In this document: piece by piece, positions 8,142-25,754 of the stretch | How positions within the stretch are numbered: the first letter of the stretch is position 1 | How the letters are laid out: each line of letters opens with the position of its first letter | Source: a virus | Direction: 5' to 3' (one strand) | DNA: 64,000 bases | IMG/VR virus record: IMGVR_UViG_3300028883_000004 | Span: 1-64,000 of that record | The notes under the pieces: generated by a model | The model's input: only the letters and a program-made list of their open reading frames with translations | Database searches by the model: none | Told to the model about the DNA's origin: nothing | Position numbers and translations under genes: made by a program

Positions 8142-11111
8142 ATGCCGCAAAGACGATATGGACCCACTCAGGGAGCCGGAACGGCCATCATCGAGAGAGA
8201 GGGAGAGAAGGTCATTACTCCTGGTGCTCTCGGCGTTACGGTCTACACTGGCGTCCTGGAGAAGGGAAACGAGGGCGAGCTCATCTACTGCCCTGGGAAA
8301 CGAGACCTTGAGAAGAAAACAGGAGGGTACATCCCTGAGAGCTTCCTTCCCGACTGCGCCAGAGACATGCTGGATGCAGGAGAGGGAGCCGGCGAACTGT
8401 ATCTGATCAGGGTTCAGGACACAGAGCAGCGGAAGGGGTTCACCTTCCTGAAAAGCTCATTCGATCCGAACATGACTTCAGTCGAAGGTGTCGCTCAGGT
8501 GATGATGGACAGTGGAGGTATGTTCCCAAGCAAATCGACGATCGGAGAAATCGCCTATGTCGAAGCTGCAAATGCAGGAAAGTGGTCTGGGCGACGACTC
8601 ATCTTCGGATATTCGATCGACCCCGAAGAGGACAATGTCATTGATGGAAATCAGATCGACATCCTCGGTGGCAATATGGTTAACGGCATCGGTTTCGGAA
8701 ACGACGAACTGAAAGGGGCAACTCTCTACATCGAACCGGTGAAGGGAAAGTCTTACGAAGTCGTCTCGAACAACGGAAGCATCTGCACGCTCCCGATCGA
8801 TGTAAACCTTGAAGCTGACATCATTGCAGCCGGTGGCGTTCCGGAGTACAGGACAAAGCTCCAGGTTCTGGTCGTCCTCGATAACTCCAAAGCCGTTGGC
8901 ATTATGACAAAGACTGGAGCAATGGACGGATTCCACTGGGGAGCAGAAGTCTATTACAACGGAGGAAAGGTCAACGACTGGGCGAACCTGAACACAGACC
9001 TCGATGCAAAGTACGGTTACGTAAACCTGATCAACAACGACGGGAGCAATACCGACATCAAAGTCGAGAATCTGTGGAACGGATCCAAGACATCGCCGAA
9101 GGCCCTTCCCTCTATTCTCTCTGGTCGAGTTTTCGCTTCAGGGGAAATGATCGGAGCTGGCTCCAGTGTATTCATTCAGCTAAACGACATATTCATGAAA
9201 CATGACTTTAGTGATGACGACGCAAGCGATTCTTTTGAAGGAACCCCGATCGACCTTTGGGGACAGCATCCCGATGGTGATCCTTACAAGAATCAACCTG
9301 GACACTTCGAATTCATATGCTTCGAGAAGGAACCTGGAGACCTTCGCTGGAACGTCGTCTTTACTCCTGAGATGTACTACAGGGCGATGCAGAACAACAA
9401 AATCGGTGGCGACGATCCTCCGAATTTTTTCAGACCGTGGCAGTACCTCTGGGAAGCGGAAGCCAGGAGCGATGGAGATTCCGAGGAGATGGAAGATTGG
9501 AATGTCGACCCGCATCAGATCATACCGCCTTTCGTTATCGAACCTCCCGATGAAGGGACCTACACTGCAGGCGACACAATCGAACTTTTTATAGGTGGAC
9601 CGGCACCCGGTTCTCTTGCAGGATGGTTCCTGGTTCCGAATCCGCTTACCGCTCCCAACACAAAGGTTCGAATCGCCAATAACACCTTGGTTGCAATCGA
9701 GGTAAAATCGAGTGTCAATCTCAGTGAGTATTGGCCTGATATGAATCGTACGAATACATTCATGCAACCCGATCCAGACCTTGGTGGTCCGATGCCTTCT
9801 TATAACTGGAACAATTTTATGGAGACGAACTCTCTCGTTCCGAACCATGAGTTTCAGCAGGTATGGGGAAGGGTTGAGAGCGCCGGCGACAAAAACAACT
9901 TCCAGATGTCCTTCTACGACGATGCAGCCTACGGACCTGGGCAGCCTCCAGGAAATCGCCTCAACGTTTATACGGACCTCAAAGATTACTTTGAAGGAAA
10001 CCCACCCGCTGCTCAGCCGCTCAATCCGTTCTTAGGCGATGGTGAAATCTACATCGTTTTCGAAAACGGTGACATCATGTGCATCGAGTTCGACGCCGAC
10101 TACGTTCCTGCAGAACTTGCAAACTTCGCGGAGAACTGGGGATGGTGGTTCGAACTCGGAAACGGACCGTACTTCAAAGTCGAGGCTCCTCAGGAGATGT
10201 GCTATGCGAAAGACGGGCACACGAACCTGAATGACAACGACTACATTGAGGCGGCCTATGATGTCGACCTTACCCCACTCAAGAACCTTTTTGGAAAGAA
10301 GAAAGGACTTGTCAAACTGGCTACTCCTGGAGTAACTGCAACGGCAATTCAGAAAGCCGGCGTTGCTCTGGCGGATGCAATGAACTATCAATACCGCTAC
10401 GAGGTTCCCTCTAACATCGTAACCGAGGATGCGGCTGTCTCCTACATCGAAGACACGCTGGGTAAGAACGACTTCGCAGTCGTAGCTTTCCCCTCCTACG
10501 GGTACGTCAGCGATCCGGAGAAGGAAGGCCTCAAGCTCATCCCACTCACGGGAGCGATTCACGGGAGAGAGGCTGGAGTCGCCAGAGACTACAGCGGGTA
10601 TCATAAACCTGCGGCTGGCGTTTCGGTTACCCTTCCCAGGGTCCTCGCACTTCCGACCGGCGATCGAGTTCTCAACGAGGAGTTCCTCAACCCGAAGGGC
10701 GTCAACATCATCAAGAAGTACAGCGGGAACTTCATCATCTGGGGCAATCGTACACTGGCTCTTGATCCTACCTGGATGTGGAAACATCAGCGCGAGTTGA
10801 TGAGCCATTACGAGCACGACCTTCAGGAGTCCTTCGACTGGATCATCTTCATGCTGAACAACAAGGACACCTGGGCTCTCGCCAAGACGGCTCTCAAGTC
10901 GTACTTCCTTCCGGAGTACACAAAAGGAGCCCTCGATGGAGACTCCTTCGAGAAGGCGTGCAGCATCAAGATCGACAAAGACAACAACAGCAGGCTGGAA
11001 TCCGCTCTCGGAAACCTCAACGCCTCCATTACTCTGAGACTGGTCGACGCCGTGGAACGATTCGTCATCTCCATCGGCAAGGCTGGAATCTTCGAGGACA
11101 CCGCGTCCTAA
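8142..11111 (+). CDS. tail sheath protein (unusually long, 989 aa)
   Basis: SD GAAGGAGGA. The C-terminal region (KGVNIIKKYSGNFIIWGNRTLALDPTWMWKHQRELMSHYEHDLQESFDWIIFMLNNKDTWALAKTALKSYFLPEYTKGALDG) matches the conserved sheath C-terminal domain pattern (G.N.I..G...wGnRTL...). Confidence 0.85.
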   Translation: MPQRRYGPTQGAGTAIIEREGEKVITPGALGVTVYTGVLEKGNEGELIYCPGKRDLEKKTGGYIPESFLPDCARDMLDAGEGAGELYLIRVQDTEQRKGFTFLKSSFDPNMTSVEGVAQVMMDSGGMFPSKSTIGEIAYVEAANAGKWSGRRLIFGYSIDPEEDNVIDGNQIDILGGNMVNGIGFGNDELKGATLYIEPVKGKSYEVVSNNGSICTLPIDVNLEADIIAAGGVPEYRTKLQVLVVLDNSKAVGIMTKTGAMDGFHWGAEVYYNGGKVNDWANLNTDLDAKYGYVNLINNDGSNTDIKVENLWNGSKTSPKALPSILSGRVFASGEMIGAGSSVFIQLNDIFMKHDFSDDDASDSFEGTPIDLWGQHPDGDPYKNQPGHFEFICFEKEPGDLRWNVVFTPEMYYRAMQNNKIGGDDPPNFFRPWQYLWEAEARSDGDSEEMEDWNVDPHQIIPPFVIEPPDEGTYTAGDTIELFIGGPAPGSLAGWFLVPNPLTAPNTKVRIANNTLVAIEVKSSVNLSEYWPDMNRTNTFMQPDPDLGGPMPSYNWNNFMETNSLVPNHEFQQVWGRVESAGDKNNFQMSFYDDAAYGPGQPPGNRLNVYTDLKDYFEGNPPAAQPLNPFLGDGEIYIVFENGDIMCIEFDADYVPAELANFAENWGWWFELGNGPYFKVEAPQEMCYAKDGHTNLNDNDYIEAAYDVDLTPLKNLFGKKKGLVKLATPGVTATAIQKAGVALADAMNYQYRYEVPSNIVTEDAAVSYIEDTLGKNDFAVVAFPSYGYVSDPEKEGLKLIPLTGAIHGREAGVARDYSGYHKPAAGVSVTLPRVLALPTGDRVLNEEFLNPKGVNIIKKYSGNFIIWGNRTLALDPTWMWKHQRELMSHYEHDLQESFDWIIFMLNNKDTWALAKTALKSYFLPEYTKGALDGDSFEKACSIKIDKDNNSRLESALGNLNASITLRLVDAVERFVISIGKAGIFEDTAS

Positions 11112-11525: not shown

Positions 11526-12404
11526 ATGGATAAACGACCCCAGGCGGCTTTGGTGGTGGAGATGATAGACCCTCCGTGGGCCTTTTATCGTATCGCCACT
11601 CGGGTCAAAAGGAGGTTCGACGAACTCGGGATCGACAGTCGGATCGTTCTTCAGAAAGAACTGAGGAAGCGAGACAACTTCGACCTGATAGTTGTATTCT
11701 GGTGGGCTTCTGGTGTAAGCATACGAAGCCGCCTGGGGTCGCGACCTTTTGTTGCTACATGCTTCTACGATCACTTCAGCTGGAAGGGAGTGGAGAAAGC
11801 AAGACAGATTGTATCAGAATCAAATCTTATTTTAGCCTGCAATGAAAAACTTCAGGGCGAATTAAGAACTTCATTCGGATGCGAAAGTCATCTTGTAGAA
11901 GATGGAGTCGACACAAAGACTTTCTCGCCTTCTCCTCTCCCTTCCGACTTTTCAGTTGGATGGGTAGGGTCCACTCGATATAACGCCAGAGTAAAATGCC
12001 AATACAATGCAGTGAAAGCCTGCGATGAATTGGGGTTAGACCTCTACGTTGCAGACCCTACAAAGAATCCAATCATATTTGAGGACATGCCAGAGTTCTA
12101 CAAAGGCATTAGTGTTCTTCTAGTCACGAGCAAGGTGGAGGGAACTCCCAACCCTCTGCTGGAAGCGATGGCGTCTGGCCGTCCTGTTATATCCACTAGG
12201 GTTGGTCTTGCAGAGAAGGTCATTAGAAGCGGCGAGAACGGCGTCCTAGTGGACTTTGGAAAGCAACCCCTTGTGAGAGCCCTCCAAGCAATTCAATCGT
12301 CCGATCTAGCTGTAATGGGGAGACTTGCAGCAGATACCACAAAGTCATACGACTGGGAAGGTAAGATTCGGCAATGGGACTACGTCGCAAAAAGCGTTCT
12401 GTAA
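11526..12404 (+). CDS. glycosyltransferase, GT-B fold (GT1/GT4-like)
   Basis: Classic C-terminal GT-B motif: VTSKVEGTPNPLLEAMASGRPVISTRVGLAEKVIRSGENGVLVD. Confidence 0.8.
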   Translation: MDKRPQAALVVEMIDPPWAFYRIATRVKRRFDELGIDSRIVLQKELRKRDNFDLIVVFWWASGVSIRSRLGSRPFVATCFYDHFSWKGVEKARQIVSESNLILACNEKLQGELRTSFGCESHLVEDGVDTKTFSPSPLPSDFSVGWVGSTRYNARVKCQYNAVKACDELGLDLYVADPTKNPIIFEDMPEFYKGISVLLVTSKVEGTPNPLLEAMASGRPVISTRVGLAEKVIRSGENGVLVDFGKQPLVRALQAIQSSDLAVMGRLAADTTKSYDWEGKIRQWDYVAKSVL

Positions 12405-13447
12405 AAAGACAGATTGAACTTCATGCCATTAAGAATAGAGATGCCATCGCTGAGATGCAGAAGATAAAAGCTGTAGGTGGCTTTCAGTCCTTTATGCCTT
12501 ACGACTGTATCAACTGGAAGTGGGAGACGGACAAGCCTCACATTCTCTACGCAATAGACAGGTACGGCTGGGCGTTCTGGAATATAGCCAGAAACGTAAT
12601 GCCAAACCTTCAGAGATACGAAAATTACGAAGTCCCGTTCCTTTCTGTTGCAGAGGGAGGGGATTGCGACGTCGCTATCTGTTTTTGGTGGCAGTCGATC
12701 CTTCGACTAAAGGACAAAATCAAAGCAGGCAAGTGGCTGATGGGTCTCTACGATCACTTTACCTGGAAAGAGAACAATGCAACCTGGAAACCAGCAAACT
12801 CAACTTTCCTTGAGGCTCTAAAAGTATGTGATGGAATATTCGTCTCAAATGAGATGCTGATGAAAGAGGTCTCGGAGTTAACAGACAAACCAATCTATCT
12901 ATGCGAGGATGGAGTCGATACAAAGTTATTCACTGTTCAGGATCGAAACCCAGATCGAATCTTCAAGGTAGGATGGACAGGCAACTCCCTCTCTGGAAAC
13001 GGAGCGATCAAGGGTCTTGATGTTATAAAAGCTGCATGCAATAAAGTAACCAAAGCAAAGATTGCTACAATGTTCCTAGACAGGAAGGGATTTGACACAA
13101 AAGATTTTATCCCTCATGATGAAATGCCGAATGCATTTTACAAAGCAATCGACGCCTACCTTTGCGCATCTGTAGCAGAGGGAACTCCCAACCCATTGCT
13201 TGAGTCCCTCGCCTGTGGCGTTCCAGTCATTACGACCAGAGTTGGTCTCGTAGATAAGTTTGCAAGATGCCCAGGAGTAATTGTTGCAAAGAGAACTCCA
13301 GAGGCGTTTGCCAGGGCGATAGAACGAATGGCAAAACGAGACAGGGTCGAGATAGCAAAGGCCTGCAGGAAAGCTGTGGAGCCCTTCGACTGGAAAATCA
13401 AATCAGAGAACTTCGCCAGGATGATAGAAGATCAACTGGCAAGGTAG
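12374..13447 (+). CDS. glycosyltransferase, GT-B fold (paralogue of 11526-12404)
   Basis: ASVAEGTPNPLLESLACGVPVITTRVGLVDKF. Also shares LYDHFTWK...CEDGVDTKLF...VGWTGN with the upstream gene (FYDHFSWK...VEDGVDTKTF...VGWVGS). Confidence 0.8.
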   Translation: MGLRRKKRSVKRQIELHAIKNRDAIAEMQKIKAVGGFQSFMPYDCINWKWETDKPHILYAIDRYGWAFWNIARNVMPNLQRYENYEVPFLSVAEGGDCDVAICFWWQSILRLKDKIKAGKWLMGLYDHFTWKENNATWKPANSTFLEALKVCDGIFVSNEMLMKEVSELTDKPIYLCEDGVDTKLFTVQDRNPDRIFKVGWTGNSLSGNGAIKGLDVIKAACNKVTKAKIATMFLDRKGFDTKDFIPHDEMPNAFYKAIDAYLCASVAEGTPNPLLESLACGVPVITTRVGLVDKFARCPGVIVAKRTPEAFARAIERMAKRDRVEIAKACRKAVEPFDWKIKSENFARMIEDQLAR

Positions 13448-17561: not shown

Positions 17562-20018
17562 ATGTCTAACAGGAACGTCGGCCTTGGCGCCTATCTAAAA
17601 TTCAGTAGCGGAAAAGCCGTCTCGGAAATGGGGCGAGTCAACCGCGCCCTGAAAGGTATGATGGCTGGAGTCTCCAGAGTCTCCTCTGGTGTCTCCAAGA
17701 TGTCGGCCGGCTTCAATAAACTCGCAATGGCTGGAACCGGGGTCGCGGTGGCCCTTGGTTTTGGTGTAAGGTCTGCAGTTAAGTTTGAGCAAGGGATGAG
17801 CGGTGTAAATGCCGTTCTGATGAAAAGCTCTGCAGAGACAGCTGCCCTTCGTACCGAGGCGTTGAGGTTAGGATCAACTACAACCTTCACTGCCACCGAA
17901 GCATCTAATGCAATGGAGAACTTAGCCAGAGCAGGCTTCAGTCAAAATGAGATTATCTCAGCGACTGGAGCTGTTCTGAATGCAGCTGCCGCTGATGCAA
18001 TGGGACTTGCAGAGGCTGCCGACATTGTGGCTAACGTTACCAGGGCAATGGGACTGGAAGCGAAGGATGCTTCGAGAGTCGCTGACGTCTTGGCTCTAAC
18101 GTCTGCGAAGACAAATACAAACATCACAATGTTAGGAGAGGGGTTCAAGTACGCGGCGACTCAGTCGAAGAACTTGGGCATCCCGCTGGAGGAGACTTCT
18201 GCCGTCCTGGGCTTGATGGCAAATGCAGGTCTCAAGGGAAGTATGGGAGGCACGAGCTTTACCAACATGCTGGTAAAGATGACAAAGCCTACCGCTACTG
18301 CGAAAAGGATGATGAGTGAACTCGGAGCCGAATTCGTAGTTGCCACGGACAAGTTCGGAAAGAAACGAGTCGACCTTATAGACACGGTGCATAGTATCGC
18401 GGCAGGATTCAAGGACATAAAGGACCCTGTGAAGAAAGCCGCAATGGTTACAGAGATATTCGGACTTCGTGGACAGAAGGCAGTTGGCTCCTTCCTTGGT
18501 CAACTCGAAAAGAATCCCAGAGTGCTTTCTGACCTTTATGCAAAACTCGAAGATGCTAACGGCGCCGCAGCAAAGATGGCCGAAATTAGACTTGATAATG
18601 TAGCAGGGCAAATGACCCTTCTGAAAAGCGCAGTAGAAGGCCTCACGATCAACTTCTTTTCCATGTTTAACTCTCAGGCAAAGGGAGGTCTAAAGTCTCT
18701 CGCTAAAGGGATTGGAAACATCTCAGTTGCACTTCAGTATCTTACGACCGATCCAAAACAGATTGGTGAGAAGTTCCAAAAGATGTACGATGAATTACCT
18801 CAGGGTGCAAAGGATACGGCAGCCGCTCTACAGTCTGCAGCGATCACTATTAGAAACGCATGGACATGGGTTGGGAACAACGTAATTAAACCTGCAAAGG
18901 AATGGTTCAACTCACTTACACCAGAGGCGAAGAAAACTCTCGTCACAGTTACACTAGGAGCAACGGCGCTTGTAGGAGTTATGGGCCCACTCTCTCTGGC
19001 AATAGCCACGGTTGGTTTCATAGCTTCCGGCGTTGCTTCCGTAGTCGCGGGAGCCTTCTCAGTAATGGCAGGAGCAATCTGGCCAGTTACTCTTGTAGTA
19101 GGAGCCCTCGCGGCAGCTTATTTCGCTTTGAGGAGAGACGGGGAGACTCCGTTGCAATTCATGGCGAGAGCATGGACAAATCTAAAGACGGCCGTAATGG
19201 ATTTCGCTCAGGGGTTCAAGAGTACATTCATGCCAATGTGGGAACCGCTGAAGGAGCTTTACGCCTCAGCGATTAAACCAATCTGGGACTCTCTGAAGGG
19301 AATGTTCGCAGACATCTTCGGAGGCGGGAATACAACGGCAGCTTCCTTCAAGCAAATAGGAGCGGTCGTTGGAACGGTGTTCGGATTCATAGCTACCGTA
19401 GTCGGAACGGTCATGCAGGTCGTAGGAGTCTACATCTCCAATGTGATTGACGGTTACATTAGACCAATGATTAGGGCCGTTCAAAACATAGCAGGTGGCT
19501 TTATCGACCTTGTTACTGGAGCGACCTCAATGAAGTCCGCTCTGGCTAGAATCTTTGGAGGTGTAGCAGACATCATCATCCTTCCTTTCAAGTATTCCAT
19601 CTCGAAGGTCCTTGCAATCATCGAGGGACTAGGGAAGGCCGTCGGCTTGAAGATGGAAGGAGTTGCAAAGGCAAGGAAGGTTGTAAACGACTTCTCAATT
19701 GCAGGCCTTCTCACTGGTGGGAAATCGGAGGGAGCAAAACCGACTGTAGCTCCACCGGTAAAGAATCCGATTGTTGCAGCTGGCCCGACTGCTCCTGTAG
19801 CTTCACCTGTAGCAATGAATACGGCTGCAGCAGCTCCGAAGGTAGATGTAAATGTAGAGGCTCCACCACCTCCGAATGTAAACCAGACAACAGTGGTGAA
19901 GCTCGACGGAAAAGAGATAGCAGCAAAGGTCGTAAAGAATCAGATCGATTACGACCAGAGAGCAGGGAACAAGTCTGGTTCAAGGGAGGCGGCAAAGAAC
20001 TATGGGGCAGGAGGTTAA
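17562..20018 (+). CDS. tail tape measure protein
   Basis: The core (MGLEAKDASRVADVLALTSAKTNTNITMLGEGFKYAATQSKNLGIPLEETSAVLGLMANAGLKGSMGGTSFTNMLVKM) matches the TP901-type tape measure core. Central hydrophobic segments. 818 aa. Confidence 0.85.
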   Translation: MSNRNVGLGAYLKFSSGKAVSEMGRVNRALKGMMAGVSRVSSGVSKMSAGFNKLAMAGTGVAVALGFGVRSAVKFEQGMSGVNAVLMKSSAETAALRTEALRLGSTTTFTATEASNAMENLARAGFSQNEIISATGAVLNAAAADAMGLAEAADIVANVTRAMGLEAKDASRVADVLALTSAKTNTNITMLGEGFKYAATQSKNLGIPLEETSAVLGLMANAGLKGSMGGTSFTNMLVKMTKPTATAKRMMSELGAEFVVATDKFGKKRVDLIDTVHSIAAGFKDIKDPVKKAAMVTEIFGLRGQKAVGSFLGQLEKNPRVLSDLYAKLEDANGAAAKMAEIRLDNVAGQMTLLKSAVEGLTINFFSMFNSQAKGGLKSLAKGIGNISVALQYLTTDPKQIGEKFQKMYDELPQGAKDTAAALQSAAITIRNAWTWVGNNVIKPAKEWFNSLTPEAKKTLVTVTLGATALVGVMGPLSLAIATVGFIASGVASVVAGAFSVMAGAIWPVTLVVGALAAAYFALRRDGETPLQFMARAWTNLKTAVMDFAQGFKSTFMPMWEPLKELYASAIKPIWDSLKGMFADIFGGGNTTAASFKQIGAVVGTVFGFIATVVGTVMQVVGVYISNVIDGYIRPMIRAVQNIAGGFIDLVTGATSMKSALARIFGGVADIIILPFKYSISKVLAIIEGLGKAVGLKMEGVAKARKVVNDFSIAGLLTGGKSEGAKPTVAPPVKNPIVAAGPTAPVASPVAMNTAAAAPKVDVNVEAPPPPNVNQTTVVKLDGKEIAAKVVKNQIDYDQRAGNKSGSREAAKNYGAGG

Positions 20019-20021
20019 CGG

Positions 20022-20765
20022 ATGTCACTACCGTTTTTAGAATACGCACTCTGGCAGCTTGTCTCTCTTGAGGGTGGTCCGTACTTCGAATCACAGTACC
20101 CTCTCCAGAAGTTCAAGGAAGCTGGACCTGGAAGCAACTTCGCAGAGGGTAAGTCTCTTGGGAACCCGTACACGGTCCTGCAGTTCCTAAACGGAAAGAC
20201 GGAACGATGCAGGCTCGACGCCTTCTTCTTCGCTCGTCATTGGGGAGAGCAAATCACCGATTACGTTGACACCCTAAAGGAACTTGCGAAGGTAGACGAG
20301 ACCCTCGGGAGACCTCACGTCTGCTACTTTGTCTGGGGATCATACTTCGCAATCGACTGCATAGTGGAGGATGTAGGAGACATAGAATGGGGAGGCCTTC
20401 GAATCGATCAGGTTCCGAGAGTCGCTTCCGTTCCCATTACTCTGGTGAAATGGACAGGCTCCCCACTTGTTGCAGGGGCTCCTCAAGGAAACAGAGAGAC
20501 CCTTCACATCTTCTCAAGACAAGGGACCTCTTACGAGATGTTAGCCTACGAGAAGTATCGGAACCCGATGCTCGGGGTCCTTTTGAGAAGGCACAACAGA
20601 TCCGTCAAGAGACCTTACACCGGAGCAGTGGTCAAGATACTTCGTAGAGATCATCCAAAGATGAAGCAGAGAATCGAGCCAACTTCTATCGCGATGCGGA
20701 AGGTGGTTCGCGAACCTCAGTTCCTTAACGCAAAGGCAAGAGAAAGGGCAGGGATCATAACATGA
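20022..20765 (+). CDS. putative tube-initiator / baseplate hub-associated protein (CIS-tube/LysM-family-like)
   Basis: Lies right after the tape measure gene. The motif (GRPHVCYFVWGSYFAIDCIVEDVGDIEWGGLRIDQVPRVASVPITL) resembles the rPp..f.WG...G.P.rA pattern of this family, recalled from memory. Confidence 0.45.
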   Translation: MSLPFLEYALWQLVSLEGGPYFESQYPLQKFKEAGPGSNFAEGKSLGNPYTVLQFLNGKTERCRLDAFFFARHWGEQITDYVDTLKELAKVDETLGRPHVCYFVWGSYFAIDCIVEDVGDIEWGGLRIDQVPRVASVPITLVKWTGSPLVAGAPQGNRETLHIFSRQGTSYEMLAYEKYRNPMLGVLLRRHNRSVKRPYTGAVVKILRRDHPKMKQRIEPTSIAMRKVVREPQFLNAKARERAGIIT

Positions 20766-21949
20766 GTCCGCTTCCTAAGATTCCGCAATACAGTGAACTT
20801 GCTCCTAACTTCACGATGAAGATAGGCGAGGCGGGATCGGTTCCTAGTGACGAGGTCCTTCCAGGACTTGATGACGCAAAGGAACTTATCGAGGAGGTGT
20901 CCTATGAATCCTCTACAGAGATTTGTGACAAGATGGTTATCACTTGCAACAATCCAGAAAATGTCATCCTCGAAAACAACCTATTTCCAGAGGGAGCGAT
21001 TGTAGACATCTTTATGGGATACGGTGGAGTTCACGAATTTATAGGTCGCGCAGAACTCCTCAGATGGCTTCCGAGCTTTGGTCGGAGTGAGATGCCTTCC
21101 TTCACGGTGGAAGGCCTCGCACTGGAAAATGTCTTTATGAGAAACGACGGACCCGACGAGAGTGCTGGAGAGACATGGACCTTCGGGAAGGATGCTCTCG
21201 CCTCCGACGTCATTACGGAAATACTTTCGAGGAAGGTCTACACGAAGTACAAGTTCAAGACGAACATTACTCCTACAAAAGTAAAACGGATGTGGAATCA
21301 GAAGAAGGGGCAGAATGACTGGCAGTTTATGAAACTACTTGCAGCCTTCCATGACTTTGACCTTTGGGTGGAAAGCGACGAGACCGGAGACACGGTCGTC
21401 TTTGCGCCAATGGATGACAGCGCAAGCTCAGAAGGAGAGTTGCTTTACAAGAGCGGGTACGAGTCACATCTTCTGGACTTCGATCCTGAGTGGGGATTTG
21501 AGGACATTCCTACAGCTGTAGAGGTTGTTACAGTAGACAAAAAGACAGGTGAGCTTTCGGTTCAGCGGGTCGAGACAGTCATTCCTGATAGTAAGGCGAA
21601 GAGGAAGTCGAAGCCAAAGCCTATCGTTTACGGTTCCTCTGTGTATCTTGGTGTTTACGGAGAAAGAGTAATGCGGGCAGAGGTTAAAAGTGGAAATGCC
21701 CAGGCAGCTGCTCAGGCGGCAGTCGCTCAGTTTAGAACTAAGCTGAAGAACTTCTTTGTCGGGACAGGACATCTCAGCGGACATCCGTATTTTAAGGCTC
21801 GACAAATCTGGACCCTGGGAGGTCTGGGAGATCGCCTCAACAACGATTACTACTTCCATCGCGTAAAGCACACCATGAATCCGGATAGCATTTACGAGGT
21901 GGACTTCGGGGCGCGCCTCATCCTTCCTCCGGAGGTGGCGTATGAATGA
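20762..21949 (+). CDS. baseplate hub protein, gpD / Mu gp44-like
   Basis: 395 aa, ATGA-coupled. The C-terminus (GTGHLSGHPYFKARQIWTLGGLGDRLNNDYYFHRVKHTMNPDSIYEVDF) fits the late-control-D family pattern. Synteny is TMP-X-D-V. Confidence 0.55.
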   Translation: MSPLPKIPQYSELAPNFTMKIGEAGSVPSDEVLPGLDDAKELIEEVSYESSTEICDKMVITCNNPENVILENNLFPEGAIVDIFMGYGGVHEFIGRAELLRWLPSFGRSEMPSFTVEGLALENVFMRNDGPDESAGETWTFGKDALASDVITEILSRKVYTKYKFKTNITPTKVKRMWNQKKGQNDWQFMKLLAAFHDFDLWVESDETGDTVVFAPMDDSASSEGELLYKSGYESHLLDFDPEWGFEDIPTAVEVVTVDKKTGELSVQRVETVIPDSKAKRKSKPKPIVYGSSVYLGVYGERVMRAEVKSGNAQAAAQAAVAQFRTKLKNFFVGTGHLSGHPYFKARQIWTLGGLGDRLNNDYYFHRVKHTMNPDSIYEVDFGARLILPPEVAYE

Positions 21950-22868
21950 GAGAAACCTGGAGACCTACGAAGCGAGAGTTGTAGACAACAACGATCCAGA
22001 GAAAGGTGGAAAGCTCCTGGTGATGTGCGAGGCTCTTACAGGAACGAAGGAGTCGTACCCAGAATGGATCCGCCCTTCGTTTTCCTATTCTGGAGGAGCG
22101 GAAGAAAAACCCTTTGGCGTTTTCTTCATTCCAGATGTAGATGCCCTTGTCGAGATAGAGGTTTCGACGGAAGGCTCAGTCATGGAAGTCAAATGGAGGG
22201 CTGGAGTCTACACTGACAAAAACCCAATCCCAGAGGAGCTTCTGGAGCACTATCCATTTCGCAAAGGAATCGTAACGCCAGGCGGACATATCCTTATCCT
22301 CGACGACATGGAGGGAGAGGAGGCGATGTCCTATCTCCACCCACTTGGTTCTGGGATAACCGTAGACAAGGACGGCTCGCTCGCTCTAATGGTGAAGAAC
22401 TTCATCACAGGTGGGACGATGGCCCTCTTTATCTCTGCAGTAGGCGACGGAATAACTCTGATCGACGACAACGGATCGTTTATCAGTTTCAGCATAATGG
22501 GAGACATTACATTGGTCTCCTCGACCGGGCAGGACATGGTTACAATTTCAGACGGACAGATTCAGCTGATGACGTCTGGGAATGTAGTTGTGAGTGGAAA
22601 CCTTCTCGCAAGGTCTCCTTCCATTACCTTGGGAGAGGGAGCAGTGTCTCACTTGATGAAATACGAGGAGTGGTTTTCATGGGCATCTGCCCATCAGCAT
22701 CTCCCATCAGTTGTAACAATACCAGCAGGAACTACAATTGCTCCTACATGCGCAGACGGGGCTCCGGTAGTTTCTGGACTTATAACATGCACGGTAACAC
22801 CAACGGGGATTCCTACAGTCGCTCCGAATCCGGCTCTAATATCCTCGGTTGGGAACACTACATTGTAG
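21942..22868 (+). CDS. baseplate central spike protein (gpV / gp5 OB-fold type)
   Basis: The N-terminus (YEARVVDNNDPEKGGKLLVMCEALTG...PFGVFFIPDVDALVEIEV) matches the baseplate assembly protein V pattern (V.dn.DP...gR.kV...G....P..G..V.v.F). Confidence 0.7.
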   Translation: MNERNLETYEARVVDNNDPEKGGKLLVMCEALTGTKESYPEWIRPSFSYSGGAEEKPFGVFFIPDVDALVEIEVSTEGSVMEVKWRAGVYTDKNPIPEELLEHYPFRKGIVTPGGHILILDDMEGEEAMSYLHPLGSGITVDKDGSLALMVKNFITGGTMALFISAVGDGITLIDDNGSFISFSIMGDITLVSSTGQDMVTISDGQIQLMTSGNVVVSGNLLARSPSITLGEGAVSHLMKYEEWFSWASAHQHLPSVVTIPAGTTIAPTCADGAPVVSGLITCTVTPTGIPTVAPNPALISSVGNTTL

Positions 22869-22880
22869 AGGGAAGGATGA

Positions 22881-23186
22881 ATGTCGAGATGCTCGTTCCT
22901 ATTGCCGATGATAGCTATCCCAGGCATCCCTTTGCCTTCGATACCTTTCCCGGCTCTGCCTGCTCTCCCGAGCATTCCGATTCCAGGGATAGCTTTGCCG
23001 ATGATAGCTATCCCTGGCATCCCGATTCCGAGCATCCCGTTCCCTGCATTGCCGGCCCTTCCGAGCATCCCGATTCCTGGGATCGCTCTACCAATGCTGG
23101 CGATTCCAGGCATCCCGATTCCGAGCATACCGTTTCCAGCACTTCCGAGCCTTCCTATGATTCCATGTCCACTGGATGCGATATGA
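22881..23186 (+). CDS. proline-rich triple-repeat protein (101 aa) in the spike-tip slot
   Basis: 8 N-terminal residues plus exactly three 31-codon repeats. Of 17 codons that differ between repeats 1 and 2, 16 are synonymous in this frame. SD GGAAGGA lies just upstream. Confidence 0.6.
   Translation: MSRCSFLLPMIAIPGIPLPSIPFPALPALPSIPIPGIALPMIAIPGIPIPSIPFPALPALPSIPIPGIALPMLAIPGIPIPSIPFPALPSLPMIPCPLDAI
22905..23183 (+). repeat. 3 x 93-bp tandem repeat (coding)
   Basis: Units at 22905-22997, 22998-23090 and 23091-23183. The DNA is open in three of six frames. Confidence 0.9.
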
Positions 23187-23199
23187 GAAGGGAAAGAGA

Positions 23200-23592
23200 A
23201 TGACACAAAGACATCAGACACCCCAGGGACTTGAGCAGCCTTTAGGAACCAGCAATGGGAAAGGTAAGCTCGTCAACGGGGATAACCAAATCGAGAAACT
23301 TATCATCAATTCGTTAAGGCCTTGCGGTTCGATGAATCCTTTTCAGCAGGAACTTGACTTCACGGCAACGGTTCCGTTTAAGTTAAACATCGCAAGAACA
23401 CAGGGAGCGGCACGAGCCCACGTTCAGCGAATCAGTAAATACTTTGAGAAAGAGGACAGAGCAAAGATTCCGAACAAGACTCTTACCTTCAAGAAAGAAG
23501 GCGGTGTGCTCTTTATGTCAGGGAAATGGATCAACTTAGAAACAGACAGAGCTTCGGACTTCGATGTGCCTATCGATAAGGGAGGAAAATGA
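23200..23592 (+). CDS. putative baseplate wedge protein, gpW / gp25-like
   Basis: ATG 23200 has GAAGGGA 6 nt upstream. About 130 aa. Lies between the spike and the J-like gene. IINSLRPCGSMNPFQQELDF loosely fits the gp25 motif. Confidence 0.5.
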   Translation: MTQRHQTPQGLEQPLGTSNGKGKLVNGDNQIEKLIINSLRPCGSMNPFQQELDFTATVPFKLNIARTQGAARAHVQRISKYFEKEDRAKIPNKTLTFKKEGGVLFMSGKWINLETDRASDFDVPIDKGGK

Positions 23593-25754
23593 TGGCTGAC
23601 GTCAGCATCCCCGAATTCAGATACGTTGGTTTCTATTACGCTGAGATTCTGACAAACCTGCTTGAAAGTCTGGAGCAGCATTGTGACGAATTGACAGACC
23701 GAAGCGACTACGAACCGTACGTGCAAATCATTAGAGCCTTCACCCTGGCTCATCATATTCTCTCTTGCGAGTTAGACATCTCAGCGGAGGAGGCCATCTT
23801 TGGAACGGCAAAGGAGAGGGAGTCGGTTCAAGAACACCTGAAGCTCATCTCAACTCGACTGAATTCGTATAGTCCTGCAATGGTTCGCCTAGTCGCTACA
23901 CTCACAAAGATATTCTACGAGAATATAGCAGACATGGTTCCCAAGGGCTCCATGTTCGCTGTGAAAGGAGAAGAAGGCTCCAGAGGATTTGTAGAATACG
24001 AAGTGCAAGATAATGTATTCGCCAGAGCTGGGAACGGGGTGGAGTACTGCTACAGGGTAGACCCGGACGGAACGACTACAGGGAACCTTGAAGGAGCATT
24101 CCCATTTGAGGTGTTCCCAGACATCGTACTGAATACCTGGATTTGCTTCGGACATCCTACAAACATGTTTGATTCGCTTTATCTTAAAATGTCTGATCTT
24201 AGTGATTCGATTTACGGATCATGGGAGTATTACGCAAAGAACTACGACAACTATCATCCGAACTCTGTCACGATCGACGGAGCAGGTTTGAAGTTTGTTC
24301 TCACCTCCCTTCTTGGAACAAAGCGATGTGACGGTTTAACTATACGGGTCAGGTGTAGACTCACTGGAGTCTATGAGGAAGTCGAAGTGCAATGGGATGG
24401 ATCAAACAACTACATAATCAGCGCGGCACGATTTGGTCAAGCCGGTGATCCTTCCGTCCTTCAGCGTGATTACTTCGTAGGCGGCGAATGGCTTCCTCTA
24501 TCTCTTGTAGCGGAAACAGACTGGGACCTCGATGATGATGAGAACACTTTGAGATGGGCACTCCCAGAGGACGAATTGAGAAGGTGGAACAAAACAAACA
24601 TAGGAGATAGTGACGAAGCCTTCTTTGTAAGATACAGAATAACCTATCTTGGAACGCCACCTCATTCTGGTACGGTCGATATGGACGAAATCGACAGCGG
24701 TGCTCAGTACATTGAATTCGAGGCTATTCAAGGAAGGTCGGTTGTGCAAGACCCTCTCTTCAGCGGCACGGGTCTCCCCTTCCAGACAGTCACTCTCGCA
24801 AGGACTCCTTACATCGAAGGATCGCTGAGGCTCTACATAGACGAAGGGACAGGAGTCCATCTCTGGTCGGAGGTAGATAACTTCGTCTCCAGCACTTCTA
24901 TCTCTCGACACTTTACTGTTCGGATCAACGACGATGATCAGGCAGTTATTATGTGCGGCGACGGAGAGAACGGACGGACCTTCCCGATAGGAACGGAAAA
25001 CGGATCCGCGGCATATCGTATAGGAGCCGCGATGAATGGAAACGTCTCTGAGGATACTGTTACAGAGAACAAAAATGCAGTCCCGTTTATCAAGAACATT
25101 TACAACCCTCAGCCAGCGGAAGGTTGGAAAGACAAAGAAGGAGGGAACGAGACCGCCCTTGAGGCGGCCAAGATCAACGTTCCTGCAGCAAAACTCCGTG
25201 GGACCCAGGCTGGAGCCTCCCCAGATACTCTGGACCGCCTCCTCGTCGATTTAGAGTACGAGGGAACAAAACCGATCGTAAGGGTTAGAGTGGTCGAGGA
25301 GATATATGGACCAAAGACAATCGGGGCAATCTTAGTCGGGCCTGGAGGCTATGCCGTACCAGACGAACTCCTCTCCTGGTTGGAGGATAACCTGAATGGT
25401 CAGTTGGATTCTGAAAACGGAAAGAAGGTTATTGCGAATCATCAGCTCGCAGCAGAGCATTTCGACCCCGAGGTGATAAACGTAGAGATCGAAGTCGACG
25501 GTGGAAGCGTAGGAGAGATTACGGACCTCATTACAAGCCTTCTCAATCCTACGAAGAAGAACGACGAAGGCGATCAGTACGTATGGCAATGGGGAGGTCT
25601 TGTAGATCGAAACAGAATAGCAGCAGAGGCATGGAAGGCTAAGACAGGGCGACAGATCACAAAGGTGAATCTTATCCAGCCTGCGGCAGACGTCTCTTTA
25701 GGAGTTCGATCGCTCCCAGTTCCTGGAACAATTACTGTTACGATAGTGGAGTAA
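23589..25754 (+). CDS. baseplate J-like protein (gpJ / gp6 family)
   Basis: 721 aa, ATGA-coupled. The C-terminal region (NRIAAEAWKAKTGRQITKVNLIQPAADVSLGVRSLPVPGTITVTIVE) is typical of Baseplate_J. Synteny is W-J-I. Confidence 0.7.
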   Translation: MMADVSIPEFRYVGFYYAEILTNLLESLEQHCDELTDRSDYEPYVQIIRAFTLAHHILSCELDISAEEAIFGTAKERESVQEHLKLISTRLNSYSPAMVRLVATLTKIFYENIADMVPKGSMFAVKGEEGSRGFVEYEVQDNVFARAGNGVEYCYRVDPDGTTTGNLEGAFPFEVFPDIVLNTWICFGHPTNMFDSLYLKMSDLSDSIYGSWEYYAKNYDNYHPNSVTIDGAGLKFVLTSLLGTKRCDGLTIRVRCRLTGVYEEVEVQWDGSNNYIISAARFGQAGDPSVLQRDYFVGGEWLPLSLVAETDWDLDDDENTLRWALPEDELRRWNKTNIGDSDEAFFVRYRITYLGTPPHSGTVDMDEIDSGAQYIEFEAIQGRSVVQDPLFSGTGLPFQTVTLARTPYIEGSLRLYIDEGTGVHLWSEVDNFVSSTSISRHFTVRINDDDQAVIMCGDGENGRTFPIGTENGSAAYRIGAAMNGNVSEDTVTENKNAVPFIKNIYNPQPAEGWKDKEGGNETALEAAKINVPAAKLRGTQAGASPDTLDRLLVDLEYEGTKPIVRVRVVEEIYGPKTIGAILVGPGGYAVPDELLSWLEDNLNGQLDSENGKKVIANHQLAAEHFDPEVINVEIEVDGGSVGEITDLITSLLNPTKKNDEGDQYVWQWGGLVDRNRIAAEAWKAKTGRQITKVNLIQPAADVSLGVRSLPVPGTITVTIVE

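What the first reader, a model, noticed from the sequence alone, without database searches (positions are those of the whole stretch)
22881..23186. 101-aa proline-rich triple-repeat protein encoded in the spike-tip (PAAR) slot; reading frame supported by synonymous-only repeat divergence
The ORF consists of 8 N-terminal residues followed by exactly three 31-codon tandem repeats (22905-22997, 22998-23090, 23091-23183) and then TGA. The repeat reads PM(I/L)AIPGIP(L/I)PSIPFPALP(A/S)LP(S/M)IP(I/C)P(G/L)(I/D)A(L/I). That is 10 Pro per 31 residues, the rest being I/L/A/F/M/G/S, with no charged residue until the end of repeat 3. The same DNA is also open in a His/Asp/Ser-rich + frame (22877-23203) and a Gly-rich minus frame (22694-23221). 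Comparing repeats 1 and 2 codon by codon in the 22881 frame, 17 of 31 codons differ. Sixteen of these are synonymous (including tcg/agc Ser and ttg/cta Leu) and one is Leu/Ile. Repeat 3 shows the same trend. In the other two frames the same substitutions change the peptide extensively. So selection has kept the Pro-rich peptide while the DNA diverged. The gene sits between the gpV-like spike and the gp25/W-like gene, the slot where contractile systems often encode a PAAR-type cap. PAAR domains are single chains of about 100 aa with three pseudo-repeats that cap a trimeric spike. A three-repeat protein of that size but with a completely different, hydrophobic polyproline composition suggests a non-PAAR spike cap or a membrane-active tip. 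I recognise no described family with this repeat.
Basis: partly seen in the sequence, partly recalled or inferred. Interest (0 to 1): 0.85.

Follow-up and report, generated by a model that had tools for sequence, protein, structure and literature searches.

The report
Undescribed three-repeat proline-rich spike partner protein
A tiny, very proline-rich gene just after the tail-spike gene of an uncultured contractile-tailed phage is real, belongs to a previously undescribed family of about 20 members always encoded beside the spike, and most likely makes a one-chain, three-part partner for the three-part spike.

Summary
ORF 22881-23186 (+) encodes 8 residues, then 3 x 31 residues, then a stop. 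Repeats 1 and 2 differ at 21 bases, giving 16 synonymous codon changes and 1 Leu/Ile change.

The window alone does not settle the reading frame, because the antisense frame shares third codon positions. Relatives settle it. I found about 20 homologues in metagenomic and viral contigs with 35-69% GC. Only the Pro-rich frame is stop-free in all ten loci tested for this.

The family signature is:
- length of about 100-150 aa;
- N-terminal M-x(0-4)-C-x-[FY] (I or L in two members);
- three repeats containing PxLPxLP;
- C-terminal C-P-[LFM]-D.

The gene starts -4 to +12 nt from the stop of the spike gene. In two loci one extra ORF intervenes. It lies upstream of the gp25/W-like and J-like baseplate genes. 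Distant relatives carry a true PAAR in that slot.

Pfam, PHROGs, NCBIfam, PDB sequences and a PAAR profile comparison all gave no match. AlphaFold2 finds no fold for the isolated chain.

My best reading is a monomeric, pseudo-threefold structural partner of the trimeric spike, acting as a tip or a collar. This is inferred, not shown. The hydrophobic, membrane-active idea is not a family trait. The window spike also has an HxH apex motif, which complicates a simple cap role.

The parts
22881..23186 (+). Gene X: 101-aa three-repeat proline-rich protein (MSRCSF...IPCPLDAI), including the TGA stop
   Evidence: ORF list. Only frame open in all 10 homologous loci. About 20 homologues.
22869..22880 (+). 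12-nt spacer between the spike stop (TAG, 22866-22868) and the X start. It carries a Shine-Dalgarno-like aGGGAAGGAtga.
   Evidence: Upstream regions of 20 genes in the window show the same GGAGG-type motif, while the minus-strand rival starts lack it. Spike-to-X gaps in homologues are -4 to +12 nt.
22890..22892 (+). Codon for Cys4, part of the conserved N-terminal C-x-F motif
   Evidence: Invariant in alignments A1-A3, and present in every full-length member of A4. The motif is recovered upstream of truncated gene calls in L031 and L035.
22905..22997 (+). Repeat 1 (31 codons)
22998..23090 (+). Repeat 2 (31 codons); 30 of 31 aa identical to repeat 1, with 21 nt differences
23091..23183 (+). Repeat 3 (31 codons), ending in the family's C-terminal motif
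23166..23177 (+). C-P-L-D (Cys96-Asp99), the conserved C-terminal motif C-P-[LFM]-D
   Evidence: Cys96 is invariant in all 17 sequences of A4; Pro97 is conserved in at least 90%.
21942..22868 (+). Central spike gene (308 aa): OB-fold, beta-helix-like middle, HQH motif 55 aa before the C-terminus, then a Pro/Thr/Val-rich tail
   Evidence: PF04717 E=4.7e-6. phrog_430 E=1.3e-5. C-terminal sequence. 33% identical to the L034 spike, E=7e-38.
23200..23592 (+). Next gene (130 aa), gp25/W-like by position only
   Evidence: No HMM hit. Homologous to L034 5539-5904 (E=2e-8). The equivalent genes in L028 and L036 hit PF04965.
20762..21949 (+). gpD / Mu gp44-like hub gene upstream of the spike
   Evidence: phrog_52 tail protein E=2e-5. 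The equivalents in L035 and L039 hit GpP/NMB1110-like domains.
23589..25754 (+). Baseplate J/gp6-like wedge gene
   Evidence: phrog_219 baseplate wedge subunit E=9e-5. The equivalents in L023, L031 and L039 hit PF04865 Baseplate_J.
22694..23221 (-). Antisense Gly-rich ORF, a by-product of the Pro-rich frame and not a gene (CCN Pro codons read as NGG Gly on the other strand)
   Evidence: Called by the public annotation. It overlaps the spike 3' end by 175 nt and has no SD. The corresponding frame has stops in 6 of 10 homologous loci.

Best explanation
Shown: 22881-23186 (+) is a real protein-coding gene. It belongs to a previously undescribed family, here called X, of small proteins. Members carry an N-terminal Cys-x-Phe, three Pro-rich repeats of about 31-35 aa built around PxLPxLP, and a C-terminal Cys-Pro-[Leu/Phe/Met]-Asp. 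The gene is encoded immediately downstream of the central spike gene of contractile-tailed phages and is often translationally coupled to it.

Inferred: X is a virion structural protein that binds the trimeric spike as a single chain, one repeat per spike subunit. That solves the three-to-one symmetry problem in the same way PAAR/gp5.4 does, either as a tip or as a collar around the Pro-rich C-terminal end of the spike.

Further inference: the N- and C-terminal half-segments with their invariant cysteines meet and close the pseudo-threefold ring, by a disulfide or a bound metal. X folds only on the spike.
For: Coding frame:
- Only this frame is open in all 10 loci, across 37-69% GC, and GC3 tracks genome GC.
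- It has an SD-like site, and all neighbouring genes are on the same strand.
- dN/dS between the L031 and L039 orthologues is 0.21, with differences at codon positions 1/2/3 of 40/24/65.

Family:
- Full-length relatives P0134 and P0139.
- Profile hits P0151-P0171 down to E=1e-32.
- Viral contigs L023 and L039.
- Invariant Cys4 and Cys96.

Link to the spike:
- The gene order hub (gpD/GpP), spike, X, W, J is seen in the window, L023, L026, L028-30, L031, L033, L035 and L039, with an extra ORF in L034 and L036.
- Spike stop to X start is -4, -4, 0, 0, 1, 3, 6 or 12 nt.
- In L027 and L037 the spike and X stay together without W/J.

Slot equivalence: a genuine PAAR sits between the spike and the gp25-like gene in L011-L016.

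Threefold logic:
- Most members have three repeats.
- Repeats within one protein are 70-87% identical in amino acids although dS between them is about 1-3.
- They are more alike than the L031/L039 orthologues are to each other (55%). This is expected if each repeat contacts the same surface on three identical subunits.

Other support:
- The Mu-like spikes next to X lack an HxH motif. The literature predicts that this class carries a separate monomeric tip (PMC12407873).
- AF2 gives an extended chain with no fold for the isolated protein (pTM 0.15-0.16). This is compatible with folding on a partner.
Against: - There is no physical evidence that X is in the virion or touches the spike.
- AF2 failure may simply reflect the shallow 17-sequence alignment.
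- The spikes of the window, L028, L034 and L036 do contain HxH, which published work associates with tip-less spikes. Here, though, the motif is 31-55 aa from the C-terminus rather than 12.
- A few members appear to have two repeats (P0159, P0167).
- L034 lacks both Cys motifs.
- In L034 and L036 another ORF separates the spike from X.
- Protein-level similarity of the repeats could also arise from old gene conversion followed by synonymous drift.
- Adjacency and coupling to the spike gene would also fit a spike-specific chaperone.
Confidence: 0.55

Rival explanations
1. X is a spike-specific assembly factor or chaperone. It is co-translated with the spike, helps the Pro-rich spike C-termini trimerise or keeps them soluble, and is absent from the finished virion.
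For: Tight translational coupling to the spike gene. No autonomous fold. The adjacent spikes end in Pro-rich, hydrophobic tails.
Against: The conserved triple repeat, the invariant terminal cysteines and the strong constraint keeping repeats alike look more like a fixed structural interface than a transient chaperone. Known spike or fibre chaperones are not organised this way (my knowledge, not tested).
Confidence: 0.2
2. X is an ejected, membrane-active peptide. It rides on or in the spike and inserts into the host envelope to help the tube or tape-measure protein reach the inner membrane.
For: The window copy has no charged residue between R3 and D99 and is made of P, I, L, A, F, M, G and S. 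It has the spike-adjacent position.
Against: Hydrophobicity is not conserved. Many members carry K, D and E at the variable repeat positions. A Pro every 2-3 residues excludes transmembrane helices. There is no signal peptide or lipobox.
Confidence: 0.12
3. The real gene is the antisense Gly-rich ORF (22694-23221, minus), as called by the public annotation, or the region is a non-coding tandem repeat.
For: A gene caller chose the minus ORF. That frame shares third codon positions with the plus frame, so repeat comparisons give dN/dS 0.17-0.19 there too.
Against: The antisense frame has stops in 6 of 10 homologous loci, while the plus frame has none. The minus ORF overlaps the spike gene by 175 nt, runs against an all-plus-strand operon and lacks an SD. 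The conserved N- and C-terminal motifs exist only in the plus frame.
Confidence: 0.02
4. X is a highly divergent PAAR-domain protein.
For: Same slot, same size (about 100 aa) and three pseudo-repeats.
Against: None of the 17 members hits PF05488 or DUF4150 even at E<=10. hhalign of the family profile against a verified PAAR gives probability 0.04%. The composition is very different (about 30% Pro), with no Gly-rich strands, no PAAR motifs, and only two conserved Cys and no conserved His.
Confidence: 0.05

Closest known systems
PAAR-repeat spike tip proteins (Pfam PF05488; T4 gp5.4, T6SS PAAR)
   Same: About 100 aa. Three internal pseudo-repeats in one chain. The gene lies between the spike and gp25/W in phage tail modules; a genuine PAAR occupies this slot in L011-L016. 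The presumed partner is a trimeric spike.
   Different: No detectable sequence or profile similarity. X is about 30% Pro with PxLPxLP cores instead of Gly-rich beta-strands and PAAR motifs. X has two invariant Cys at the extreme termini rather than a His/Cys Zn site. No fold is predicted. Binding to the spike is not shown.
Apex domain of P2 gpV / phi92 gp138 / Mu gp45 spikes (HxH iron cage)
   Same: It is the alternative known way to sharpen a spike. The spikes of the window, L028, L034 and L036 contain HxH.
   Different: The apex is part of the spike chain and is a true trimer, whereas X is a separate gene. In P2 the HxH lies 12 aa from the C-terminus (bioRxiv 10.1101/2023.02.25.529910). Here it is followed by 31-55 further Pro-rich residues. 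The Mu-like spikes next to X have no HxH at all.
RB43 orf205w, a non-PAAR spike tip candidate (PMC12407873)
   Same: It is a precedent that the gp5.4/PAAR slot can hold an unrelated tip protein.
   Different: orf205w is about 690 aa and mostly alpha-helical. X is about 100 aa, Pro-rich and repetitive.
Generic Pro-rich or pentapeptide-like low-complexity repeats (e.g. xLPxΦ 5-residue repeats, extensin-like)
   Same: Composition. These make up most of the 187 hits in the exhaustive search.
   Different: They have a 5-residue period, arbitrary copy number, no conserved termini, no phage context and no full-length colinearity. X has exactly three long repeats with a mixed 5+3 spacing and fixed end motifs.

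Membership tests
PAAR (PF05488 PAAR_motif / PF13665 DUF4150) | Significant match to the PAAR profile | tested here: not met
   hmmscan of 17 family members against Pfam at E<=10 gave no PAAR family. hhalign of A4 against a verified PAAR gave probability 0.04%.
PAAR (PF05488 PAAR_motif / PF13665 DUF4150) | Single chain of about 100 aa with three pseudo-repeats | tested here: met
   3 x 31 aa in the window. Three repeats in most homologues.
PAAR (PF05488 PAAR_motif / PF13665 DUF4150) | Gene adjacent to the spike/VgrG gene | tested here: met
PAAR (PF05488 PAAR_motif / PF13665 DUF4150) | Conical beta-structure bound as a monomer to the blunt end of the spike beta-helix, with a Zn site near the vertex | not testable with these tools
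   AF2 monomer models have pTM 0.15-0.16 and no secondary structure. No multimer prediction is available. Only two invariant Cys and no conserved His.
Spike Apex domain (HxH iron cage) as the tip | HxH motif within about 15 residues of the spike C-terminus, with no separate tip gene | tested here: not met
   The window spike has HQH 55 aa from its end and is followed by X. Five Mu-like spikes next to X lack HxH. Relatives L003 and L006, with HxH 14-17 aa from the end, go straight to gp25.
Pentapeptide repeat proteins (PF00805/PF13599) | Tandem 5-residue repeats matching the Pfam profile | tested here: not met
   No Pentapeptide hit for any of the 17 members. In the window the Pro spacing is 5, 3, 2, 3, 2, 3, 3, 3, 2, 5 (read).
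Collagen-like triple helix | Gly at every third residue over long runs | tested here: not met
   Direct reading of the sequences. The third-position residues are A, S, G, K, D and E, mostly not Gly.
New family X (defined here) | M-x(0-4)-C-x-[FY] N-terminus (Ile in P0157, Leu in P0169), three PxLPxLP-containing repeats, a C-P-[LFM]-D C-terminus, and a gene directly downstream of the central spike gene | tested here: met
   The window protein has MSRCSF, 3 repeats and IPCPLDAI, and starts 12 nt after the spike stop.

The most novel reading that the evidence does not exclude
X is a second, evolutionarily independent solution to capping or clamping a threefold spike with one chain. On this reading it is a proline-rich (largely polyproline-II/short-strand) pseudo-threefold ring or cone. 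Its N- and C-terminal half-segments are stapled by the invariant cysteines (disulfide or metal). It folds only on the Pro-rich C-terminal ends of the spike trimer and forms the part of the phage that first meets the host envelope.
Probability: 0.35. Interest if true: 0.85.

Novelty: new variant of a known kind. Interest (0 to 1): 0.68.

Why it matters
- Spike tip proteins are among the most conserved parts of contractile injection systems, and the known ones are nearly all PAAR. A sequence-unrelated family in the same genetic slot, spread over phages from 35 to 69% GC, would widen the known repertoire of spike accessories. It could also supply a new scaffold for engineering tailocins or eCIS tips.
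- The family is largely invisible to current pipelines. Gene callers pick the antisense Gly-rich ORF or truncate the gene. No profile library contains it. AlphaFold2 cannot fold it alone. The window copy has no internal tryptic site, so shotgun virion proteomics would miss it.
- The repeats stay alike in protein while diverging fully at synonymous sites. This is a clean natural example of symmetry-imposed constraint, or of selection against recombinogenic DNA repeats.

Tried and rejected
1. Word-indexed protein search with the window protein gave no hit.
2. The exhaustive phmmer search gave 187 hits, nearly all unrelated 5-residue-period or eukaryotic low-complexity repeats. Only P0134 and P0139 were true members. 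Long N-terminal matches (P0100, P0020, P0150 and others) were checked as possible PAAR-toxin-like fusions and rejected.
3. The genome contigs and metagenome-contig scans each returned only a spurious Acetatifactor chromosomal repeat, read antisense to a real gene (L025, L038).
Single-member scans gave L023, L034 and L039. L024 and L040 are only Pro-rich look-alikes after spike-like genes.
5. AlphaFold2 on two alignments gave pTM 0.15-0.16, so Foldseek was not run because it would be meaningless.
6. Pfam, PHROGs, NCBIfam and PDB sequence searches found nothing. The weak phrog_33360 tape-measure hit (E about 1e-3) is taken as compositional.
7. tblastn of X and of the spikes against 50,697 cultured phage genomes found no X and only remote OB-fold matches in Erwinia jumbo phages.
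8. A PAAR elsewhere in the window was not found by phmmer or motif scan with a single PAAR query, which is a weak test.
9. Read-through fusion of the spike and X was considered, because they share a frame in the window. It was rejected: two stops intervene, and in homologues the genes overlap out of frame.
10. Equal-length ORF pairs in the window (308, 395 and 989 aa) were checked for duplication and are unrelated.
11. Literature searches for a proline-rich or polyproline spike or tip protein found nothing relevant.

Full report
**Observation**

The ORF at 22881-23186 (+) exists as described. It has an ATG start and encodes 101 aa: 8 N-terminal residues, three exact 31-codon repeats, then TGA. 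Tandem Repeats Finder reports a 93-nt unit with no indels.

Repeats 1 and 2 differ at 21 of 93 bases, 16 of them at third codon positions. Of the 17 codons that differ, 16 are synonymous and one is Leu/Ile. None of 20,000 random placements of 21 substitutions gave so few amino-acid changes.

**Why the window alone does not fix the frame**

The minus-strand Gly-rich ORF (22694-23221) is the frame whose third codon positions coincide with those of the plus ORF. It therefore inherits much of the 'synonymous' signal:
- synonymous to non-synonymous counts of 10:6, 11:13 and 11:9;
- NG86 dN/dS of 0.17-0.19, against 0.05-0.20 for the sense frame.

The public annotation of the source contig (Logan SRR8554434_25705, 95.8 kb) calls the minus ORF. 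This explains why the first protein search found nothing.

**Context**

The window is part of an uncultured contractile-tailed phage. Genes are essentially all on the plus strand. The tail module reads:
- tail sheath, 8142-11111 (phrog_23);
- tape measure, 17562-20018 (PF10145);
- tube-like gene, 20022-20765;
- hub/gpD-like gene, 20762-21949;
- spike, 21942-22868 (PF04717 E=4.7e-6; phrog_430);
- X;
- a 130-aa gene, 23200-23592;
- a J/gp6-like gene, 23589-25754 (phrog_219);
- further baseplate and fibre genes.

X has an SD-like GGGAAGGA like its neighbours. The minus-strand starts do not.

**Relatives**

A back-translated scan of viral contigs found L023 (69% GC). There a 104-aa ORF, MSNCVFPV...SIPCPLD, lies 1 nt after a spike-slot gene and before a 148-aa gene and a Baseplate_J gene. 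A Mu gp43-like and a gp44-like gene lie upstream.

The exhaustive phmmer search of 1.84 billion representatives was dominated by unrelated low-complexity proteins. It did contain two colinear full-length relatives, P0134 and P0139. Profile searches then added P0151-P0159, P0161, P0163, P0164, P0166, P0167, P0169 and P0171. A further viral scan added L039.

Several public gene calls are N-terminally truncated. In L031 and L035 the conserved N-terminus lies just upstream of the called start.

**Family signature** (alignments A2 and A4)
- Length about 100-115 aa, or about 150 aa with an insertion in P0154, P0155 and P0163.
- N-terminus M-x(0-4)-C-x-[FY], with Ile in P0157 and Leu in P0169.
- Three repeats with a core like ΦPxPSΦSLPxLPxLP, separated by short linkers of alternating hydrophobic residues.
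- C-terminus C-P-[LFM]-D.
- Cys96 is invariant. Cys4 is present in every full-length member.
- L034, the closest relative of the window phage (spike 33% identical, E=7e-38), has a three-repeat Pro-rich ORF that lacks both Cys motifs.

**Frame decided**

Across 10 loci spanning 37-69% GC, the Pro-rich frame is the only one without stops in all of them. The antisense 'shared third position' frame has stops in 6 of 10. GC3 of X runs from 0.18 to 0.90 in step with genome GC. The L031 and L039 orthologues (55% aa identity, no gaps) have dN/dS 0.21 and differ at codon positions 1/2/3 by 40/24/65. The gene is real.

**Link to the spike**

In every locus with enough flanking sequence, X follows the spike or the gene in the Mu gp45 slot. 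The evidence falls into three groups:
- Spike identified by a PF04717 hit: the window, L028-30 and L036.
- Spike identified by position after a gpD/GpP-like hub gene: L023, L026, L031, L033, L035 and L039. These shorter spikes have no Pfam or PDB sequence hit.
- W/J baseplate genes downstream of X: PF04965 in L028 and L036; PF04865 in L023, L031 and L039.

Other points:
- The spike stop and X start are separated by -4, -4, 0, 0, 1, 3, 6 or 12 nt.
- In L034 and L036 one unassigned ORF of 161-191 aa intervenes.
- In L027 and L037 the spike and X remain together although no W/J genes follow.
- In distant relatives of the window spike, the slot holds a verified PAAR (L011-L016; PF05488 E=9e-11) or nothing.

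**Not a known family**

There was no hit in Pfam (all 17 members, E<=10), PHROGs, NCBIfam or PDB sequences. The only exception is a weak, probably compositional, match to a tape-measure PHROG. hhalign of the family profile against the verified PAAR gives 0.04% probability. Neither X nor a close spike relative is present in 50,697 cultured phage genomes. Literature searches found no description.

**Structure**

AlphaFold2 with the 17-sequence alignment gave mean pLDDT of 60-65 and pTM of 0.15-0.16 with no secondary structure, both for the window protein and for P0158. I therefore did not run fold searches. The chain either folds only on a partner or is beyond the reach of this alignment depth.

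**Mechanistic inference (not shown)**

Four features point to a single chain that binds a threefold-symmetric partner, one repeat per subunit.

1. The repeat number is three in most members, despite repeat lengths of 31-50 aa.
2. Repeats within one protein remain 70-87% identical in amino acids while dS between them is about 1-3. This holds in five independent members. They are more alike than the L031 and L039 orthologues are to each other (55%). So changes are fixed in all three repeats together at the protein level, without DNA homogenisation.
3. The N-terminal C-x-F segment and the C-terminal ...C-P-L-D segment together resemble one inter-repeat linker, for example in P0152 (read). This suggests the ends meet and the two invariant cysteines, perhaps with the conserved Asp, close a ring.
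4. The gene is coupled to the spike gene.

The obvious partner is the spike trimer. Next to X, that trimer ends in a Pro-rich, hydrophobic tail.

The published rule (PMC12407873; bioRxiv 10.1101/2023.02.25.529910) says that spikes without a C-terminal HxH carry a separate monomeric tip, while HxH spikes have their own apex. The Mu-like spikes beside X have no HxH, which fits a tip role. The spikes of the window, L028, L034 and L036 do have HxH, but 31-55 aa from the end instead of 12 as in P2 gpV. For these, a collar, or a complex with the extra tail, is as plausible as a simple cap.

The idea rests on the window copy's lack of charge. Other members carry many Lys, Asp and Glu at the variable positions. 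It is not a family property.

**Verdict**

The gene defines a previously undescribed, spike-linked protein family that annotation pipelines miss. Its role as a pseudo-threefold spike partner, functionally analogous to PAAR but not a member of that family, is the best-supported reading. It still needs multimer modelling, co-purification or cryo-EM.

Noticed in passing
window 22694-23128 (-); L001 6753-7187 (-): The public gene call on the source contig is the antisense Gly-rich ORF. Several homologues are N-terminally truncated in public calls (P0161, P0166, P0171). In L035 the conserved (M)SLCNF N-terminus has no ATG/GTG/TTG codon and may start at a CTG.
   Followed up: partly
L027 2-685 and 815-1708 (-); L037 4171-6219: A hub (gpD) fragment in L037, a spike and X lie beside homologous Cys-rich secreted proteins and are not followed by W/J baseplate genes. 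In L037, X is cut short and followed by a DNA methyltransferase. This may be a prophage remnant or a domesticated spike-X pair.
   Followed up: partly
L034 4321-4896; L036 2194-2679: An extra ORF of 161-191 aa with no family hit sits between the spike and X in two loci, including the closest relative of the window phage. The window has no such gene in this slot.
   Followed up: partly
L024 4137-6375: In a low-GC phage contig, a 514-aa gene in the spike slot (not confirmed by any family search) is followed at once by a 230-aa protein. That protein has an internal ...IPKIPSFPFPTLPSLPKLPSLPSLPKLPSLPKLP... stretch but lacks the family's Cys ends. It may be a related module embedded in a larger protein.
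   Followed up: no
window 22692-22868 (spike residues 251-308): The spike has an HQH (HxH iron-cage-type) motif followed by a 55-aa Pro/Thr/Val-rich tail with two Cys. This is much longer than the 12 residues that follow HxH in P2 gpV.
   Followed up: partly
window 11526-13447: Two partly overlapping glycosyltransferase-like ORFs (phrog_2170, E=1.6e-7 and 1e-12) lie inside the tail module, between the sheath gene and the tube-region genes.
   Followed up: no
window 21942-23186: The spike and X are in the same reading frame, separated by TAG, three codons and TGA. In homologues the two genes overlap out of frame (ATGA), so this is taken as coincidence and not read-through.
   Followed up: yes
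window 22881-23183: The window X protein has a single Arg (R3) and no Lys. Trypsin-based virion proteomics would yield no usable peptide.
   Followed up: yes
L025 and L038 (Acetatifactor MAG and metagenome contig): A chromosomal tandem repeat reads PSRPLPSQA in one frame but is antisense to the C-terminal (E/R)G(S/T)-rich tail of a metallo-hydrolase-like gene. It is a false positive for the Pro-rich query.
   Followed up: yes
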